Shown here in pieces: positions 138-30,117 of a stretch of 32,000 nucleotides of DNA. The notes below the pieces were generated by a model. That model ran no database searches, was not told the origin of the DNA, and saw only the letters and a program-made list of their open reading frames with translations. Position 1 is the first letter of the stretch. Each line of letters begins with the position of its first letter. The position numbers were made by a program, and so were the translations under genes. The stretch lies in the NCBI GenBank assembly GCA_046760785.1, contig JBHIET010000027.1:1-32000 (forward strand), written 5' to 3'. The DNA is from Anaerolineae bacterium (GTDB lineage: Bacteria > Chloroflexota > Anaerolineae > B4-G1).

Positions 138-1814
138 TTAGCCCAGGTAGCCAAGGTCGCTCAGTCGTTCCAATATTTCTTCTTCCTCACTTGGCGACAG
201 CGTGTCAATTCCCAACATTGAATCCGATGGGCTCCACTTGTAGGTGGAAACTGGGCGGCTGACCAGCGACGGAGAAAGCCACTCCTGTAGCACCCGACCA
301 TCCATCCATTCAGGCACAGCGCAGCCCAGCACATGCAGCACTGTCGGTGCAATATCCCCTAGCCAGGCAGCGGGACGCTCTTCTGTCGCCTGGGTGATGC
401 CGGGGCCGGCGGCAATAAGGATGCCGTCCAACCGATGTCCTCCCGACTCATGAATGCGCGAAGCGCAAAATATCTCACCTGGTTGATTACCAAACTCATA
501 CCCCTGGCGGGTAATATAGGCCAGATCGCGCATCGTTATGACTAGGTCAGGGGCGTGGACAAGATTAGGACCGTGGTAGATATCCTCTCCTTTATTAATT
601 CTATCTACCACGGGCTTGCCATCTGCCGGATCGACTAATTCCTTCAAGACCTGACATAATTCATCGCGCAAAGCCTCGTACTCACTTCCTGGTGCGACAA
701 TACCCTGGGGTTCCCGCCCGGCTAAGTTGATGTAAATCTGCCCCTGGTAGCCGAAGCTATAGGCACGGGTGCGTGACCAATCGATTCCTTCGCCAAAATC
801 GGTCCACCCCGTGCGGGGTAGCAGCTTGATACGATCTCCCAGCAAGTCCTTGATAATCCGCTCCACACGACCCAGGTGCGCCCATCGTAAGAAACGTGAG
901 ACGTTGCTGCGCGTGAGGCCAGCGCGAGCCAGGAACTGACGTAGAGGTGGAGGTGACTGGGAGATCAGATAGCCTTGTTGGCGCAACCATTCGTTCAGAA
1001 ACACGTCTTTATACAATGGTCCAGAGCCATGATCGGACGCGATGAATACTGTGGTCTCAGGTCCAGCAGTGGCGATTAACTCACCCAAGTGACTATCTAT
1101 CCGCTGGTAGAATTCTAGGATAACATCCCGATAGGCAGCAGAGCGTACGGGGTCATAGTCAGGGTGGGATGAATCCATATGACGCCAGAAAATGTGAGAT
1201 ACCTCATCGGTACCCCGATAGACAATCATGAAGAAATCCCAAAGCTCCTCAGCCAACAGAGATAGGGCGGCGGAAGTAAGGCGGTCGGTGATTTCGTAAA
1301 TGTCGTGCAAGAAGGTATCCTCATTGTCCAGGTAGCTATATACCCGGCGGTTGACCCGGTAGCCATTCCGTAAGAGCCGGTCGCTCAATTCAGGCGGATA
1401 AGTGAAGCTCTTGAAATTGGGTGTGCCCAATCCGCTGGTGAGAAAGCCGTTGACAGGCTCAGGCGGATAGGTCATAGGAACGTTCATTACTCCCACACGT
1501 CTCTCCTGCTCGCTCAGCAGTTTCCAGAGTGAGGGAGCACGGATGTGATAGCGAGTCACCGGGCGCAGCCGATAGCTATCCGGTTCTCGATACGTAAAGT
1601 CAAACACCCCGTGTTTGCCAGGGTTTGTCCCGGTCATGAAAGTTGACCAGGCTGCTGCCGACACTACAGGTAAGACAGACCGTAATCGGCCATATCTTCC
1701 CCTCTCCATCAGACTGCCCAACACAGGTAGATGACCAGCTCGTGCCCATGGTTCGATCAGATCTAGTGTCGCTCCATCCAGGCCAATGACCATCACACGT
1801 GAAACAGTTGACAT
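138..1814 (-). CDS. Alkaline-phosphatase superfamily enzyme, type I phosphodiesterase/nucleotide pyrophosphatase (NPP)-like, paralogue 1; apparently cytoplasmic
   Basis: The ORF spans 138..1841. I prefer the internal ATG at 1814 (MSTVSRVMVIGLDG...) because AGGAGA lies about 7 nt upstream and it sits 4 nt after the upstream TAG stop (1819-1821). NPP/AlkP bimetal-site motifs are all present: VIGLDGAT, PVVSAAAWSTFMTG (Ser at the nucleophile position), TDEVSH, ASDHGSG, GGHRLDG. There is no signal peptide or TM segment. It is homologous along its full length to the 7135..8850 product. Confidence 0.8.
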   Translation of the reverse strand: MSTVSRVMVIGLDGATLDLIEPWARAGHLPVLGSLMERGRYGRLRSVLPVVSAAAWSTFMTGTNPGKHGVFDFTYREPDSYRLRPVTRYHIRAPSLWKLLSEQERRVGVMNVPMTYPPEPVNGFLTSGLGTPNFKSFTYPPELSDRLLRNGYRVNRRVYSYLDNEDTFLHDIYEITDRLTSAALSLLAEELWDFFMIVYRGTDEVSHIFWRHMDSSHPDYDPVRSAAYRDVILEFYQRIDSHLGELIATAGPETTVFIASDHGSGPLYKDVFLNEWLRQQGYLISQSPPPLRQFLARAGLTRSNVSRFLRWAHLGRVERIIKDLLGDRIKLLPRTGWTDFGEGIDWSRTRAYSFGYQGQIYINLAGREPQGIVAPGSEYEALRDELCQVLKELVDPADGKPVVDRINKGEDIYHGPNLVHAPDLVITMRDLAYITRQGYEFGNQPGEIFCASRIHESGGHRLDGILIAAGPGITQATEERPAAWLGDIAPTVLHVLGCAVPEWMDGRVLQEWLSPSLVSRPVSTYKWSPSDSMLGIDTLSPSEEEEILERLSDLGYLG

Positions 1815-1818
1815 CGCT

Positions 1819-27726: not shown

Positions 27727-27729
27727 TGG

Positions 27730-30117
27730 TTGTCCTCAAGCAACGCCGTTAGCCTATCAGAAAAGTCGAGTCTATACTATCTGCCTATGAACCAACGTCC
27801 AACCACAGTGCCCACGATCTTCGATCTCGTTTCCATCTCCCTGTTTACCTCAGCGACCTTGCTGCTGGAACAGGGTCTCGCCCGCATCTTCTCGGTCACC
27901 ACGTACTACCATTTTGCGTTTTTGATGATCTCTCTGGCTCTATTCGGCCTGTCGGTCAGCGGGACGTTCATCTACCTCAAGCAGAGGTGGTTCCCAGCCC
28001 AGAAAGCCCGCTCGCAGATCGCCACCTTCAGCGCATTGTTTGCGCTAGCCGTGATCGGCACGCTGTCCATCGTGACGCGCTTTTCAATTCGAGTCCATCT
28101 GGAATCGCGCGACCAAATCGCCTTCACCAGTGCGAACGTCCTCGAGACGCTGGTACTGTGCGTCGTCGCCGCGATTCCATTCGTGCTGATGGGCATGGCC
28201 GTCTCGCTGAGCGTGCATCACTTCCGCGCGCAGATCCACCGCGTCTACTTCTTCGACCTGGCGGGCACCGGCCTGGCGTGCGTCCTGTTTGTGCCGCTGG
28301 CCAACCTGCTGAGCGGGCCGGCTGTTGTGATTGTGGCTGCCATCGTCGCGGCCTGTGGTGCACTGGTGATGGCCGCCCGATCCGGACACAAGGTAACGCA
28401 TACGCTGAGCGTCGCCGTCGCGGTGATCGTACTGCTGGCGTTCAGCGCCGAGCAGGTGGTGCGCACGTTCCGCGTCGTCACGGTGAAGGGCAAGCACGAG
28501 GACGATTACGACTTCAGCAAATGGAACTCGTTCTCGCGCGTGACGGTTGACGAAGTGGGAGGAATCCCGCTGATCGTGATAGACGGTATGGCGGCGACGG
28601 CGATTTATCCGCCGGACGCACCGCAGAGCGGGTGGGTGCTGTCTTCGATAGGCGAACTGGTCTACAACATCCGCCAGCCTGGCCACGCGCTGGTGATCGG
28701 CTCGGGTGGCGGTGGCGACGTGCAGTCCGCGCTCGCCCTCGGCTCGCCGGAGGTCACTGCCGTGGAGATCAATCCGGTGATCGTGAACGACGTGATGCTG
28801 GGAGAGTACAAGTCGCTCTCCGGCGATCTGTACGAGCGGCCCGACGTGAGGACGGTCGTCGCCGAAGGCCGCAACTACATCCGCCGCTCGGACGAAACGT
28901 TCGACTCGATCCAGCTCACGCTGGTGGACACGTTCGCCGCGACCGCATCGGGCGCGTTCGCGCTATCGGAGAACAGCCTCTACACCGTCGAGGCTTTTCT
29001 CGACTTCCTCAATCACCTCAACCCGGATGGTTTGCTCTCGGTCACACGCTGGGTCACGAACCCAGACCGGGACTTTATCCGCACCGCATCGGTCGCGCGC
29101 GAGGCGCTGGTCAGGCTGGGGGCGCGCAACCCGGAAGATCACATCGTGGCCATCCGGGATCGCCCAGGGATGGGGACGCTGTTGGTCCGTCGTTCCCCCT
29201 TCCCGGCCGAGGAACTGGACCGTCTCGACCAACTGGCCGCCGAACATGACTGGGAAATCATGCATGCGCCGGGCCGCCACACGAACTCTCACGTTGCGGA
29301 GCTGCTGCTCGCGGCAAACCCGTCCAGGTTCTACGAGAGTTACTCCGCCGACGTGACGCCAACGACCGACAACCGACCCTTCTTCTTTTACTCCGTCAAG
29401 CCACGCGACCTGATCCCGTCCGGCGGCAACTGGTCACGGCTGCTGCTGAACAACTTCGCCGTCGTTGTGCTGTTCACCGTGCTGGTGATCGTGGCCGCGC
29501 TGACCGTGCTCTTCATCCTTGGGCCGCTCTGGTTACGACGCCGAGAGAAGGCGCACAACGCTCAGACGCGGGGACGGCGTATGCTGGTGTACTTCATGGC
29601 GCTCGGAGTCGGTTTCATCACCGTGGAAATCGCGTTACTGCAACGCTTCGTCCTGTTCCTCGGCCACCCGTCGTATTCGTTCGCCACCGTCGTCTTTTCG
29701 ATCCTGGCGATGAGTTCGCTCGGGGCACGCACCAGCGGCCGGGTCAGCGACGCACAGCGTGCTTCCATGATCCGGCTGGCCGCCAGCACAGTCATCGTAA
29801 TCATGTGTCTGCACGCGCTGCTCCTGAATGGGCTGCTGGCCCGCCTGGTCGGGCTGCCGCTCGGGGCACGCTTGCTCATCACATTCTTTTTGCTTGCACC
29901 TTCAAGCTACGCTATGGGCTTCTTGCTCCCGCTCGGAGTGCGCACCGTTGACGATATCGCGCCGGAGATGGTGCCGTGGTGCTGGGGGCTGAACGGCTCG
30001 GCATCCGTTGTAGGATCTGTGCTGACCATGGTCGGGATGATAAATTTGGGCTTTCAAGCCACGCTCATCGCAGGCGCAGCGGTCTACACTGTCGCACTGT
30101 TGAGCGCCCGGCGATAG
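27730..30117 (+). CDS. Polytopic membrane protein with a central spermidine-synthase-like (class I SAM/dcSAM-binding) domain flanked by two related TM modules
   Basis: The N-terminus has about 7 TM segments. The central soluble domain carries ALVIGSGGGGDVQSAL, VTAVEINPVIV and FDSIQLTLVD. About 6 C-terminal TM segments follow. The ORF opens with TTG at 27730 and the first ATG is at 27787 (MNQRPTT...). Neither has a clear SD, so the start is uncertain. Confidence 0.65.
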   Translation: MSSSNAVSLSEKSSLYYLPMNQRPTTVPTIFDLVSISLFTSATLLLEQGLARIFSVTTYYHFAFLMISLALFGLSVSGTFIYLKQRWFPAQKARSQIATFSALFALAVIGTLSIVTRFSIRVHLESRDQIAFTSANVLETLVLCVVAAIPFVLMGMAVSLSVHHFRAQIHRVYFFDLAGTGLACVLFVPLANLLSGPAVVIVAAIVAACGALVMAARSGHKVTHTLSVAVAVIVLLAFSAEQVVRTFRVVTVKGKHEDDYDFSKWNSFSRVTVDEVGGIPLIVIDGMAATAIYPPDAPQSGWVLSSIGELVYNIRQPGHALVIGSGGGGDVQSALALGSPEVTAVEINPVIVNDVMLGEYKSLSGDLYERPDVRTVVAEGRNYIRRSDETFDSIQLTLVDTFAATASGAFALSENSLYTVEAFLDFLNHLNPDGLLSVTRWVTNPDRDFIRTASVAREALVRLGARNPEDHIVAIRDRPGMGTLLVRRSPFPAEELDRLDQLAAEHDWEIMHAPGRHTNSHVAELLLAANPSRFYESYSADVTPTTDNRPFFFYSVKPRDLIPSGGNWSRLLLNNFAVVVLFTVLVIVAALTVLFILGPLWLRRREKAHNAQTRGRRMLVYFMALGVGFITVEIALLQRFVLFLGHPSYSFATVVFSILAMSSLGARTSGRVSDAQRASMIRLAASTVIVIMCLHALLLNGLLARLVGLPLGARLLITFFLLAPSSYAMGFLLPLGVRTVDDIAPEMVPWCWGLNGSASVVGSVLTMVGMINLGFQATLIAGAAVYTVALLSARR

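What the first reader, a model, noticed from the sequence alone, without database searches (positions are those of the whole stretch)
138..30117. Composite 30-kb envelope-glycan locus: Wzx/PGT lipid-linked assembly fused to a GT-C glycosylation hub, with no recognisable polymerase, chain-length or export genes
Thirteen transferases (4 GT2, 4 GT-B, 4 GT-C-like, 1 WbaP-type PGT) sit in one contiguous locus. With them are a Wzx-like flippase, 2 methyltransferases, fcl, 2 AlkP-fold enzymes and a SpeE-like membrane protein.

A PGT plus Wzx normally implies a Wzy-dependent pathway. However, I see no Wzy-like or O-antigen-ligase-like protein, no Wzz/PCP, and no OPX or ABC exporter dedicated to the locus. 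Instead there are four very large GT-C-type proteins. One or more of them may replace the polymerase or ligase function, or the product may be a short lipid-linked oligosaccharide transferred en bloc to protein or cell wall.

This combination does not map onto any textbook pathway (Wzy-, ABC- or synthase-dependent, or teichoic-acid type).
Basis: partly seen in the sequence, partly recalled or inferred. Interest (0 to 1): 0.7.

Follow-up and report, generated by a model that had tools for sequence, protein, structure and literature searches.

The report
Mosaic surface-glycan locus with four GT-C enzymes

Summary
Window 138-30117 holds 21 tightly packed genes: 4 GT2, 4 GT4, 4 GT-C-type membrane transferases, a WcaJ-type PGT, a Wzx-like flippase, 2 methyltransferases, an fcl-like gene, 2 AlkP-fold paralogues and a membrane SpeE-like protein. 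No Wzy, WaaL, Wzz, OPX, Wzm/Wzt or LCP family is detectable in the window.

- In a close relative (80-84% nt identity) the PGT block g17-g21 lies next to iron-uptake genes. Homology starts at g17, so PGT and Wzx are not co-inherited.
- g01-g10, which includes Wzx, has a distinctly lower GC3 (0.60 vs 0.76).
- The recurrent units in Anaerolineae MAGs are a polyprenyl-phosphate sugar synthase (g12) coupled to DUF6541 (g11), and the module g13 <> g14-g15(YfhO)-g16.

The AlphaFold model of DUF6541 (pLDDT 89) matches AftA, STT3, AglB, PglB and ArnT, which places it in the GT-C_A fold.

The most likely mechanism is extracytoplasmic glycosylation from polyprenyl-phosphate-linked donors. Wzx plus GT-C without Wzy has precedent in Lactococcus PSP and streptococcal GAC. 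The missing OPX fits a monoderm Chloroflexota envelope.

I rate this a new variant of a known kind, of moderate interest.

The parts
138..1841 (-). g01: cytoplasmic AlkP-superfamily (Phosphodiest/NPP-like) protein, a paralogue of g07
   Evidence: PF01663 E=3.6e-40. 38% identical to g07. No signal peptide or TM segment.
1819..3276 (-). g02: Wzx-like MOP-family flippase
   Evidence: PF13440 scores 46 bits against a 23-bit cut-off. NF041871 Wzx_EPS E=5.8e-20, below its equivalog cut-off. The crude hydropathy scan returns 16 partly overlapping segments, so it is a polytopic protein.
3280..4041 (-). g03: class I SAM methyltransferase
   Evidence: Methyltransf_11/23/25.
4081..5016 (-). g04: GDP-L-fucose-synthase-like SDR (fcl-like); there is no gmd in the window
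   Evidence: NF047922 E=1.4e-89, 300 bits against a 500-bit cut-off, full length. PF01370.
5007..6176 (-). g05: GT4 glycosyltransferase
   Evidence: Glyco_trans_1_4 and Glyco_trans_4_4.
6176..7138 (-). g06: soluble GT2 (weak match to the rhamnosyltransferase subfamily, below cut-off)
   Evidence: PF00535. TIGR01556 E=2.4e-22, 79 bits against a 200.55-bit cut-off.
7135..8850 (-). g07: cytoplasmic AlkP-superfamily (NPP-like) protein
   Evidence: PF01663 E=1.8e-42. Weak PDB matches to NPP and sulfatases.
8924..10588 (-). g08: GT-C glycosyltransferase, PMT_2/ArnT-like
   Evidence: PF13231 E=5.5e-20 and PF02366 E=4e-10. About 10 TM segments.
10588..11748 (-). g09: GT4 glycosyltransferase
11826..12524 (-). 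g10: SAM methyltransferase, the last gene of the low-GC3 cassette g01-g10
   Evidence: The GC3 break lies between g10 (0.59) and g11 (0.76).
12570..15068 (-). g11: DUF6541 protein. It has a lipobox signal (LLTGC), an N-terminal beta-sandwich, a polytopic TM core with the GT-C_A fold and a C-terminal alpha/beta domain. It is translationally coupled to g12.
   Evidence: PF20176. AF2 pLDDT 88.9, pTM 0.89. Foldseek: AftA 3.7e-9, then STT3, AglB, DPY19, PglB, ArnT, AftD, AftB. D336 and H340 are invariant and D330 is near-invariant in the loop after the helix at 305-325.
15065..16030 (-). g12: GT2 polyprenyl-phosphate glycosyltransferase (DPMS/ArnC/GtrB/AglJ-like) with two C-terminal TM helices
   Evidence: PDB phmmer: DPMS 1.4e-15, ArnC 4e-15 over residues 2-292, GtrB 2e-8. 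AglJ 1.7e-32, also PpgS and PgfS. TM segments at 240-258 and 270-288. It overlaps g11 by 4 bp. The g12-g11 pair is conserved in L038 (82/74%) and L043 (87/73%).
16140..17657 (-). g13: 505-aa TPR-less PMT_2/TMTC-like GT-C candidate with an invariant DD motif (D42 D43)
   Evidence: No Pfam hit itself. Distant homologues (E 4e-11 to 1e-8) carry PMT_2 and TMTC_DUF1736. Invariant columns are listed. NCBI names it 'ArnT family glycosyltransferase'.
17658..17819 (.). Divergent intergenic region between g13 and g14, with promoter-like sites on both strands
   Evidence: + strand 17729-17757 (10/12, TG) and - strand 17683-17656 (10/12). These are consensus matches only.
17820..18728 (+). g14: soluble GT2, part of the conserved module
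   Evidence: PF00535. TIGR01556 E=6e-18, 65 bits against a 200.55-bit cut-off. 43-72% identical and syntenic in at least 15 loci.
18750..21290 (+). g15: YfhO-family GT-C
   Evidence: PF09586 scores 88 bits against a 28.5-bit cut-off. Weak PgfM1/M2 matches. 60-62% identical and syntenic in L005, L012, L017, L021 and L028, and 47% in L015, where the gene order is rearranged.
21287..22294 (+). g16: GT4, the last gene of the conserved g13<>g14-g16 module
22295..22511 (.). Synteny breakpoint. Homology to the close relative L041 starts at 22509. A weak promoter-like site lies at 22431-22459.
   Evidence: blastn window vs L041.
22512..23435 (+). g17: GT2, the first gene of the independently conserved PGT block
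   Evidence: 79% identical in L041.
23432..24835 (+). g18: WcaJ/WbaP-type polyprenyl glycosylphosphotransferase
   Evidence: PF02397 E=2.9e-69. TIGR03025 scores 467 bits and TIGR03023 460 bits, both above cut-off. 86% identical in L041.
24937..26451 (-). g19: secreted LysM protein with Pro/Thr-rich linkers and a C-terminal TM anchor. It has its own consensus promoter at 26578-26551.
   Evidence: Only 49% identical in L041, while its neighbours are 79-86%.
26620..27726 (+). g20: GT4 (HpsO-like)
   Evidence: NF038298 E=9e-76, below cut-off. 79% identical in L041.
27787..30117 (+). g21: 7-TM + SpeE-like (aminopropyl/methyltransferase fold) + 7-TM protein. No Wzy-like fold was detected.
   Evidence: AF2 pLDDT 87.4. 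The Foldseek top 50 are all spermidine synthases. More than 5000 homologues occur across phyla. In L041 it is separated from g20 by glnA.
30970..31959 (-). Outside the finding: an ABC2_membrane_3 permease, truncated by the window, followed beyond the window by a DrrA-type ATPase. This is not Wzm/Wzt.

Best explanation
The 30-kb stretch is a physically contiguous mosaic of at least four separately inherited glycan modules in a (presumably monoderm) Anaerolineae bacterium. It is not a single Wzx/PGT pathway.

Modules:
- Module 1 (g01-g10) is a low-GC3 cassette. It holds Wzx, an fcl-like gene, two methyltransferases, GT4/GT2/GT4, two cytoplasmic AlkP paralogues and a PMT_2 GT-C.
- Module 2 (g12-g11) is a translationally coupled polyprenyl-phosphate sugar synthase plus the DUF6541 GT-C_A enzyme.
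- Module 3 (g13 <> g14-g15-g16) holds a TMTC-like GT-C, a GT2, a YfhO GT-C and a GT4.
- Module 4 (g17-g21) is a small native block: GT2, WcaJ-type PGT, LysM surface protein, GT4 and a membrane SpeE-like protein.

Proposed mechanism (inferred):
- g12 loads a sugar on polyprenyl phosphate at the cytoplasmic face.
- This monosaccharide donor is flipped. Wzx (g02) is the only flippase in the window. In relatives a PF03706 flippase-like protein occupies the locus. The donor could first be extended by the soluble GT2/GT4 enzymes, methylated and fucosylated.
- The GT-C enzymes (g11, g08, g13, g15) then transfer the sugar or oligosaccharide to an envelope polymer or surface protein outside the membrane. 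This is the three- or four-component scheme.
- Such a scheme needs no Wzy, Wzz or OPX.
- The PGT block makes its own short Und-PP-linked glycan independently.

Shown here: the gene families, the GT-C_A fold of DUF6541, the PPGT identity of g12, the module boundaries and the synteny. Inferred: the donors, the acceptors, which flippase serves which module, and whether the modules cooperate.
For: - Families.
- g12 is a PPGT. It aligns full length, TM helices included, to ArnC, DPMS and GtrB, and matches AglJ, PpgS and PgfS.
- DUF6541 has the GT-C_A fold with invariant acidic and His residues in the first loop.
- g12-g11 adjacency is conserved in L038 and L043.
- The g13<>g14-g16 module is conserved in L005/L011, L012, L017, L021 and L028. 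A DUF6541 paralogue follows g13 in L012 and L017.
- The PGT block is conserved without the hub in L041/L042, with the homology breakpoint at window 22509.
- GC3 is 0.60 for g01-g10 against 0.76 for the rest, p=6e-5.
- L005 places module 3 beside a Wzt (Wzt_C) ABC transporter and rml genes, so the hub works with different backbone pathways.
- L043 holds YfhO, three PMT_2 proteins, a PPGT and DUF6541 with no PGT, Wzx or Wzy.
- Precedent for Wzx-family flippase plus GT-C without Wzy, and for a GT-C-fold polymerase: PMC9574508. Definition of three-component systems and GT-C: PMC11127046.
- Chloroflexota lack BAM and LPS genes and are regarded as monoderm, with layers thought to be polysaccharide or protein: PMC13319060.
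Against: - No biochemical data exist. The organism is an uncultured MAG and only about 34 kb of it was visible, so a Wzy, LCP ligase or GtrA flippase may lie elsewhere.
- Thirteen genes (g13 to g01) are co-directional with gaps of at most 109 bp. They may therefore be co-transcribed and cooperate despite different origins.
- Mosaic ancestry is normal for functional glycan loci and does not prove functional independence.
- Only one PPGT is present for four GT-C enzymes.
- No GacJ/WpsB-like activator and no GtrA protein is present.
- The relatives used for synteny are few and mostly short metagenomic contigs.
Confidence: 0.55

Rival explanations
1. This is one integrated Wzy-independent pathway. 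The PGT (g18) starts an Und-PP-oligosaccharide, the locus GTs extend it and Wzx (g02) flips it. One of the large GT-C proteins then polymerises it or transfers it en bloc to protein or cell wall, in the manner of an OST.
For: - All components are contiguous.
- DUF6541's best fold matches include the STT3, AglB and PglB oligosaccharyltransferases, which use PP- or P-linked oligosaccharides.
- g08 has a weak archaeal STT3 match.
- A GT-C-fold polymerase (WpsI) is known (PMC9574508).
- A PT-rich surface protein, g19, sits in the locus.
Against: - PGT and Wzx lie 20 kb apart on opposite strands in modules of different composition.
- The PGT block is conserved in a close relative without Wzx or any GT-C beside it. 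Only an unrelated PMT_2 lies 6 kb downstream.
- GT-C hubs recur without a PGT or Wzx.
- g11 is coupled to a monophosphate-sugar synthase rather than to the PGT.
Confidence: 0.15
2. This is an ordinary Wzx/Wzy-dependent (or ABC-dependent) surface polysaccharide locus. Its polymerase, chain-length regulator and LCP ligase are simply encoded elsewhere in the genome, and the GT-C enzymes add only side-chain decorations.
For: - Only about 34 kb of the MAG could be seen.
- Wzy proteins are notoriously hard to detect.
- A relative (L005) places the hub beside a Wzt ABC transporter and rml genes.
- Side-chain decoration is the classical GT-C role (PMC11127046).
Against: - No Wzy- or Wzz-like gene was seen within +/-10 kb of the hub or of DUF6541 in any of about 10 long relatives.
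- Four GT-C enzymes for one PPGT is more than simple decoration usually needs.
Confidence: 0.15
3. The GT-C enzymes are mainly protein O-glycosyltransferases (PMT/TMTC/Pgf-like). They glycosylate Pro/Thr-rich secreted proteins such as g19, or the conserved secreted 458-491-aa proteins found in DUF6541 loci of relatives. This reading overlaps with the best explanation.
For: - g08 and the g13 family relate to PMT_2/TMTC.
- g15 has weak PgfM1/M2 matches and g12 a weak PgfS match.
- g19 has PT-rich linkers, a signal peptide and a C-terminal anchor.
- A secreted protein without a Pfam hit is conserved downstream of DUF6541 in L038, L039, L040 and L043.
Against: - The PgfM and PgfS scores are far below the equivalog cut-offs (about 50 bits against 500-1500).
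- g19 belongs to the PGT block, not to the GT-C hub.
- The window has no homologue of the secreted 458-491-aa protein.
- PMT_2 also covers lipid and glycan acceptors such as ArnT's.
Confidence: 0.15

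Closest known systems
Four-component and 'complex' transmembrane glycosylation systems of Rha-CWPS (S. pyogenes GacI/J/K/L; L. lactis WpsA/B-WpsC-F-WpsG-WpsJ, with WpsI/H)
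   Same: - A GT2 loads polyprenyl-P.
- Soluble GTs may extend the lipid-linked glycan.
- A Wzx-family flippase is used rather than GtrA.
- A GT-C enzyme transfers the sugar or oligosaccharide outside the membrane.
- No classical Wzy is needed (PMC9574508).
   Different: - The GT-C families differ (DUF6541, YfhO, PMT_2, TMTC-like).
- There is no GacJ/WpsB activator.
- No rhamnan, ABC transporter or LCP genes are in the window.
- A WcaJ-type PGT block is adjacent.
- The phylum (Chloroflexota) is different and the acceptor is unknown.
Classical three-component Gtr-type systems (GtrA/GtrB/GtrC; CsbB-GtcA-YfhO for LTA glycosylation)
   Same: g12 is GtrB/ArnC/DPMS-like with C-terminal TM helices. 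g15 is a YfhO-family GT-C. The PPGT and a GT-C gene are coupled.
   Different: There is no GtrA/GtcA small flippase. One PPGT serves four GT-C enzymes. The system is embedded among eight cytoplasmic GTs.
Mycobacterial arabinogalactan/LAM assembly (AftA-D, EmbA-C with decaprenyl-P donors)
   Same: Several GT-C_A enzymes use a common polyprenyl-P donor. AftA is the best structural match of DUF6541. Both have extra beta-sandwich (CBM-like) domains.
   Different: There are no DPA or DprE genes. Sequence identity is only 10-15%. The envelope type is different.
Wzx/Wzy-dependent polysaccharide pathway
   Same: A WcaJ-type PGT, GT2/GT4 enzymes and a MOP flippase are present.
   Different: No Wzy, Wzz/PCP, OPX or LCP is in the window. 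PGT and Wzx are not co-inherited.
S. mutans Pgf protein-glycosylation machinery (PgfS, PgfM1, PgfE, PgfM2)
   Same: It combines a GT2 PPGT-like enzyme, YfhO-type GT-C proteins and an SDR epimerase-like gene, with a surface protein nearby.
   Different: The matches are very weak (about 40-55 bits against cut-offs of 500-1500), and no adhesin homologue is present.

Membership tests
Wzx/Wzy-dependent pathway | Initiating PGT or PNPT | tested here: met
   g18: PF02397 E=2.9e-69. TIGR03023 scores 460 bits against a 410.75-bit cut-off.
Wzx/Wzy-dependent pathway | MOP-family Wzx flippase | tested here: met
   g02: PF13440 scores 46 bits against a 23-bit cut-off. Wzx_EPS E=5.8e-20, below the equivalog cut-off.
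Wzx/Wzy-dependent pathway | Wzy polymerase (Wzy_C / O-ag_pol / EpsG, GT-C_B-like fold) | tested here: not met
   No such Pfam or NCBIfam hit on any of the 23 proteins. Every polytopic protein is assigned elsewhere. The g11 and g21 models give no WaaL, RodA or Wzy match among the best hits. This applies to the window only.
Wzx/Wzy-dependent pathway | PCP/Wzz and (in diderms) OPX | tested here: not met
   No Wzz, GNVR or Poly_export hit. OPX is not expected in monoderm Chloroflexota (PMC13319060).
Wzx/Wzy-dependent pathway | PGT and Wzx belong to one co-inherited locus | tested here: not met
   The PGT block is conserved without Wzx in L041/L042, with the breakpoint at window 22509. Wzx lies in the low-GC3 cassette.
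Three-/four-component extracytoplasmic glycosylation system | Membrane GT2 that makes a polyprenyl-P-sugar | tested here: met
   g12 aligns full length to ArnC, DPMS and GtrB, including its two C-terminal TM helices, and matches AglJ 1.7e-32. The enzyme activity itself was not tested.
Three-/four-component extracytoplasmic glycosylation system | Flippase for the lipid-linked donor (GtrA, or Wzx/MATE family) | tested here: inconclusive
   No GtrA-size ORF fits, since the gaps are at most 217 bp. Wzx g02 is present in the same strand run. Relatives carry PF03706 flippase-like genes instead.
Three-/four-component extracytoplasmic glycosylation system | GT-C-fold transferase genetically coupled to the PPGT | tested here: met
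   g11 overlaps g12 by 4 bp. The pair is conserved in L038 and L043. GT-C_A fold.
GT-C_A fold glycosyltransferases (for DUF6541) | 7-13 TM helices, an extracytoplasmic loop after the first core helix with conserved acidic residue(s), and fold similarity to solved GT-C_A enzymes | tested here: met
   AF2 pLDDT 88.9. Foldseek prob 1.0 to AftA, STT3, AglB, DPY19, PglB, ArnT, AftD and AftB, with TM-scores (normalised to the target) of about 0.4-0.57 for AftA, STT3, AglB, DPY19, PglB and ArnT and 0.25-0.39 for AftD and AftB. D336 and H340 are invariant and D330 is near-invariant.
GT-C_A fold glycosyltransferases (for DUF6541) | Transfer from a lipid-linked donor | not testable with these tools
   This needs biochemistry.
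ABC-transporter-dependent pathway | Wzm/Wzt (ABC2_membrane PF01061 plus an ATPase, often with Wzt_C) | tested here: not met
   The adjacent transporter is ABC2_membrane_3 (427 aa) plus a DrrA1-3_C ATPase. A true Wzt_C ATPase is present only in relative L005.
YfhO family (g15) | Pfam PF09586 above the gathering score | tested here: met
   88.3 bits against a 28.5-bit cut-off.
PMT_2/TMTC-like GT-C (g13) | Significant sequence similarity to PMT_2/TMTC membrane domains and a DD/DE motif in loop 1 | tested here: inconclusive
   g13 has no Pfam hit itself. phmmer hits at E 4e-11 to 1e-8 go to proteins carrying PF13231 and PF08409. D42 and D43 are invariant. hhalign against g08 alone was not significant. 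No structure was predicted.

The most novel reading that the evidence does not exclude
Hubs of GT-C genes centred on the PPGT + DUF6541 pair (with YfhO, PMT_2 and TMTC-like partners) could be the conserved, Wzy-independent machinery of Anaerolineae. On this reading they polymerise or attach the non-lipid outer layer or sheath of these Chloroflexota outside the membrane from polyprenyl-phosphate donors. DUF6541 would be a new GT-C family acting as the polymerase or ligase, possibly onto the conserved secreted 458-491-aa protein.
Probability: 0.15. Interest if true: 0.7.

Novelty: new variant of a known kind. Interest (0 to 1): 0.4.

Why it matters
The chemistry and biogenesis of the Chloroflexota envelope are essentially unknown. 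These organisms lack LPS and BAM genes yet show multilayered walls. This work shows that Anaerolineae carry recurrent clusters of GT-C enzymes around a polyprenyl-phosphate sugar synthase. It also shows that DUF6541 has the GT-C_A fold of AftA and STT3. DUF6541 gave about 1,500 hits in the word-filtered homologue search and appears in no paper of the library searched. Together these give concrete candidate genes for envelope glycan or glycoprotein assembly in this phylum.

There is also a caution for annotation. Co-location of a PGT and a Wzx does not define a Wzy-dependent pathway when the locus is a mosaic.

Tried and rejected
- Exact-product look-ups for g01 and g23 found nothing because the start codons differ.
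- PDB profile searches with the g13 family (A1) and with DUF6541 (A2) found nothing.
- A widened g13 alignment that included TPR-bearing relatives hit only TPR proteins, so that search was wasted.
- hhalign of the g13 profile against the single g08 sequence was not significant.
- phmmer of g08, g14 and g15 against PDB found nothing.
- A literature search for 'DUF6541' returned zero papers.
- A hidden Wzy in the membrane domains of g21 was considered. It was rejected as unsupported, because the Foldseek top 50 are all SpeE-type enzymes. Matches below rank 50 were not inspected.
- The flanking ABC-2 transporter was considered as the dedicated exporter. It is judged unlikely because it is DrrA-type with ABC2_membrane_3 and is conserved with the native block in L041.
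- The conserved ~460-aa proteins in DUF6541 loci were checked as possible cryptic polymerases. They are secreted proteins with only a single N-terminal hydrophobic (signal-peptide-like) segment and no internal TM helices.

Full report
SOURCE AND GENE MAP

The window comes from an uncultured 'MAG: Anaerolineae bacterium' (Chloroflexota). Identical proteins occur in NCBI and in Logan assemblies of SRR29324583/86/87. The ORF list and the Pfam and NCBIfam scans give 23 genes, 21 of them inside the finding. I number them g01-g23 from left to right.

Minus strand, from 17657 down to 138:
- g13: 505-aa membrane protein
- g12: GT2 with two C-terminal TM helices
- g11: DUF6541
- g10: methyltransferase
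- g09: GT4
- g08: PMT_2
- g07: AlkP/Phosphodiest
- g06: GT2
- g05: GT4
- g04: fcl-like
- g03: methyltransferase
- g02: Wzx-like MOP flippase
- g01: AlkP/Phosphodiest

Plus strand, from 17820:
- g14: GT2
- g15: YfhO
- g16: GT4
- g17: GT2
- g18: WcaJ-type PGT

The remaining genes are g19 (LysM protein, minus strand), g20 (GT4) and g21 (membrane SpeE-like), followed by a GNAT and a truncated ABC-2 permease. Gaps inside the strand runs are at most 109 bp on the minus strand and at most 217 bp overall.

CHECK OF THE OBSERVATION

The four GT-C assignments rest on different strengths of evidence.
- g08 is PMT_2 (E=5.5e-20).
- g15 is YfhO (88 bits against a 28.5-bit cut-off).
- g11 is DUF6541. Its AlphaFold2 model has pLDDT 88.9 and pTM 0.89. 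By Foldseek it matches AftA (3.7e-9), STT3 of yeast and human OST, AglB, DPY19, PglB, ArnT, AftD and AftB. This is the GT-C_A fold.
- g13 has no Pfam hit. Its distant homologues (E 4e-11 to 1e-8) carry PMT_2 and, in one case, TMTC_DUF1736. It keeps an invariant DD motif in the first loop. This assignment is the weakest of the four.

The negative part also holds for the window. No Wzy_C, O-antigen polymerase, EpsG, Wzz, GNVR, Poly_export, ABC2_membrane/Wzt_C or LCP hit appears on any protein, and no polytopic protein is left unassigned. The model of g21 (pLDDT 87.4; 7 TM helices, a SpeE-like domain, then 7 TM helices) matches only spermidine synthases among the 50 best PDB hits.

Just outside the finding lies an ABC-2 exporter: an ABC2_membrane_3 permease of 427 aa plus a DrrA1-3_C ATPase. 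It is not of the Wzm/Wzt type.

THE LOCUS IS A MOSAIC

Four lines of evidence show that it is not one pathway.

1. Composition. GC3 is 0.54-0.65 for g01-g10 and 0.66-0.90 for g11-g23, with no overlap (Mann-Whitney p=6e-5).

2. A close relative, L041/L042, shares 80-84% nucleotide identity.
   - It keeps g17 (79% aa), g18 PGT (86%), g19 (49%), g20 (79%), g21 (82%) and the ABC-2 permease (86%) in the same order.
   - Upstream of g17 it has FecCD, Peripla_BP_2 and hydrolase genes.
   - Nucleotide homology to the window begins at 22509, three bases before the g17 start codon.
   - The PGT block is therefore a small native locus that abuts the GT-C genes only in this genome.

3. The module g16-g15(YfhO)-g14 <> g13 recurs.
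   - In L005/L011, L012, L017, L021 and L028 the four proteins are 53-72% identical to the window's; g15 itself is 60-62%.
   - It recurs without YfhO in L007, L013 and L024.
   - In L012 and L017 a DUF6541 paralogue follows g13.
   - In L005 the module sits beside a Wzt (ABC_tran + Wzt_C) ATPase and dTDP-rhamnose genes.

4. The pair g12-g11 overlaps by 4 bp.
   - It is conserved as a pair in L038 (82/74%) and L043 (87/73%).
   - In L043 it lies with YfhO and three PMT_2 genes.
   - In L038, L039, L040 and L043, DUF6541 is followed by GT4/GT2 genes, methyltransferases, a PF03706 (LPG_synthase_TM, flippase-like) protein and a secreted 458-491-aa protein without a Pfam hit.

None of about ten relatives with long flanks shows a PGT, Wzx, Wzy or Wzz next to the hub.

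HOW IT MOST LIKELY WORKS

g12 aligns over its full length, including the two C-terminal TM helices, with ArnC, Pyrococcus DPMS and GtrB, and with AglJ, PpgS and PgfS. It is therefore a polyprenyl-phosphate glycosyltransferase, the first component of the three- or four-component extracytoplasmic glycosylation systems (definitions in PMC11127046, and PMC9574508). DUF6541, coupled to it, is the obvious GT-C partner. It carries a lipobox signal (LLTGC), an N-terminal beta-sandwich that may be a carbohydrate-binding module, and invariant D336 and H340 in the first loop.

The inferred scheme is this. A Pren-P-sugar is made at the inner face, possibly extended by the soluble GT2/GT4 enzymes, methylated and fucosylated. 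It is then flipped. Wzx is the only flippase in the window, as in GacK/WpsG systems. The GT-C enzymes transfer it outside to an envelope polymer or surface protein.

This scheme needs no Wzy or Wzz. An OPX is not expected because Chloroflexota lack BAM and LPS genes and are regarded as monoderm (PMC13319060). The PGT block would separately make a short Und-PP-glycan.

COMPARISON WITH KNOWN SYSTEMS

The combination 'Wzx-family flippase plus GT-C transferase, no Wzy' is established for streptococcal GAC (GacI/J/K/L). In Lactococcus PSP synthesis, WpsJ (GT-C) transfers an oligosaccharide en bloc and WpsI, a GT-C-fold protein, polymerises (PMC9574508). Multi-GT-C hubs fed by one polyprenyl-P donor are standard in mycobacterial arabinan synthesis (PMC11127046).

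The locus is therefore a new variant of a known kind, not a new category. Three things are new:
- The set of GT-C families involved: DUF6541, YfhO, PMT_2 and a TPR-less TMTC-like protein.
- Their recurrence in Anaerolineae.
- The fold-level assignment of DUF6541. No paper in the library mentions this family.

RIVALS AND LIMITS

The protein-glycosylation reading is suggested by PT-rich g19 and the secreted proteins in relatives, and it overlaps with the best explanation.

Limits:
- Only about 34 kb of the MAG was visible.
- Thirteen co-directional genes may still be co-transcribed and cooperate.
- Promoter-like sites fit separate units but are only consensus matches. They include a perfect sigma-70 consensus upstream of g19 and weaker sites in the g13/g14 and g16/g17 gaps.

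VERDICT

Novelty: new variant of a known kind. Interest: 0.4.

Noticed in passing
window 24937-26451 (-), promoter-like site 26578-26551: The LysM surface protein g19 has a signal peptide, two Pro/Thr-rich linkers (for example PAETPTPTPLPPPPPPTYGPSPTPRPTPTPRP), an SdrD_B-like domain and a C-terminal TM anchor. A perfect 12/12 sigma-70 consensus with an extended -10 TG lies upstream. It is only 49% identical in L041, where its neighbours are 79-86%, so it is a fast-evolving surface protein and a possible O-glycosylation substrate.
   Followed up: partly
window 27787-30117 (+): The SpeE-like (aminopropyl/methyltransferase fold) domain of g21 is inserted between two bundles of seven TM helices (AF2 pLDDT 87.4). 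The function is unknown. In L041 it is separated from the GT4 by glnA, so its link to glycan synthesis is doubtful.
   Followed up: partly
L038 19064-20440; L039 18061-19500; L040 19669-21060; L043 18493-19968: A secreted 458-491-aa protein has a signal peptide, no TM helices and no Pfam hit. The three copies that were compared (L038, L039, L040) are 27-29% identical to one another; the L043 copy was identified only by position, length and lack of a Pfam hit. In these four relatives it lies downstream of DUF6541, with a PF03706 (LPG_synthase_TM, flippase-like) gene upstream of it, directly adjacent in L038-L040. It may be the acceptor glycoprotein. The window has no homologue.
   Followed up: partly
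window ~12525-12569 (between g10 and g11): There is a sharp compositional break inside a co-directional gene run. GC3 is 0.54-0.65 for g01-g10 and 0.66-0.90 for g11-g23, and regional GC ranges from 0.51 to 0.68. This suggests recent acquisition of the Wzx/fcl/PMT_2 cassette.
   Followed up: partly
L038 9330-10023: A HEPN / nucleotidyltransferase (toxin-antitoxin-like) gene pair is inserted exactly between the orthologues of g12 and g11, which overlap by 4 bp in the window.
   Followed up: no
proteins P0115 and P0117: DUF6541 homologues about 60% identical to g11 are labelled as coming from archaeal MAGs (Bathyarchaeia, Methanomethylicaceae). This is either mis-binning or recent inter-domain transfer.
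   Followed up: no
window 138-1841 and 7135-8850 (-): Two 38%-identical paralogues of an NPP/Phosphodiest-type AlkP-fold protein lack any signal peptide or TM segment, so they are cytoplasmic. This differs from the extracellular LtaS/GacH/EptA-type phosphotransferases usual in glycan loci. Their role is unknown; nucleotide-sugar pyrophosphatase or phospho-substituent transfer are possibilities.
   Followed up: partly
window 30155-31959 and L009 13536-16528: A GNAT gene and a DrrAB-type ABC-2 exporter (427-aa ABC2_membrane_3 permease plus a DrrA1-3_C ATPase) flank the locus. The exporter is conserved with the PGT block in L041, but the GNAT is not.
   Followed up: partly
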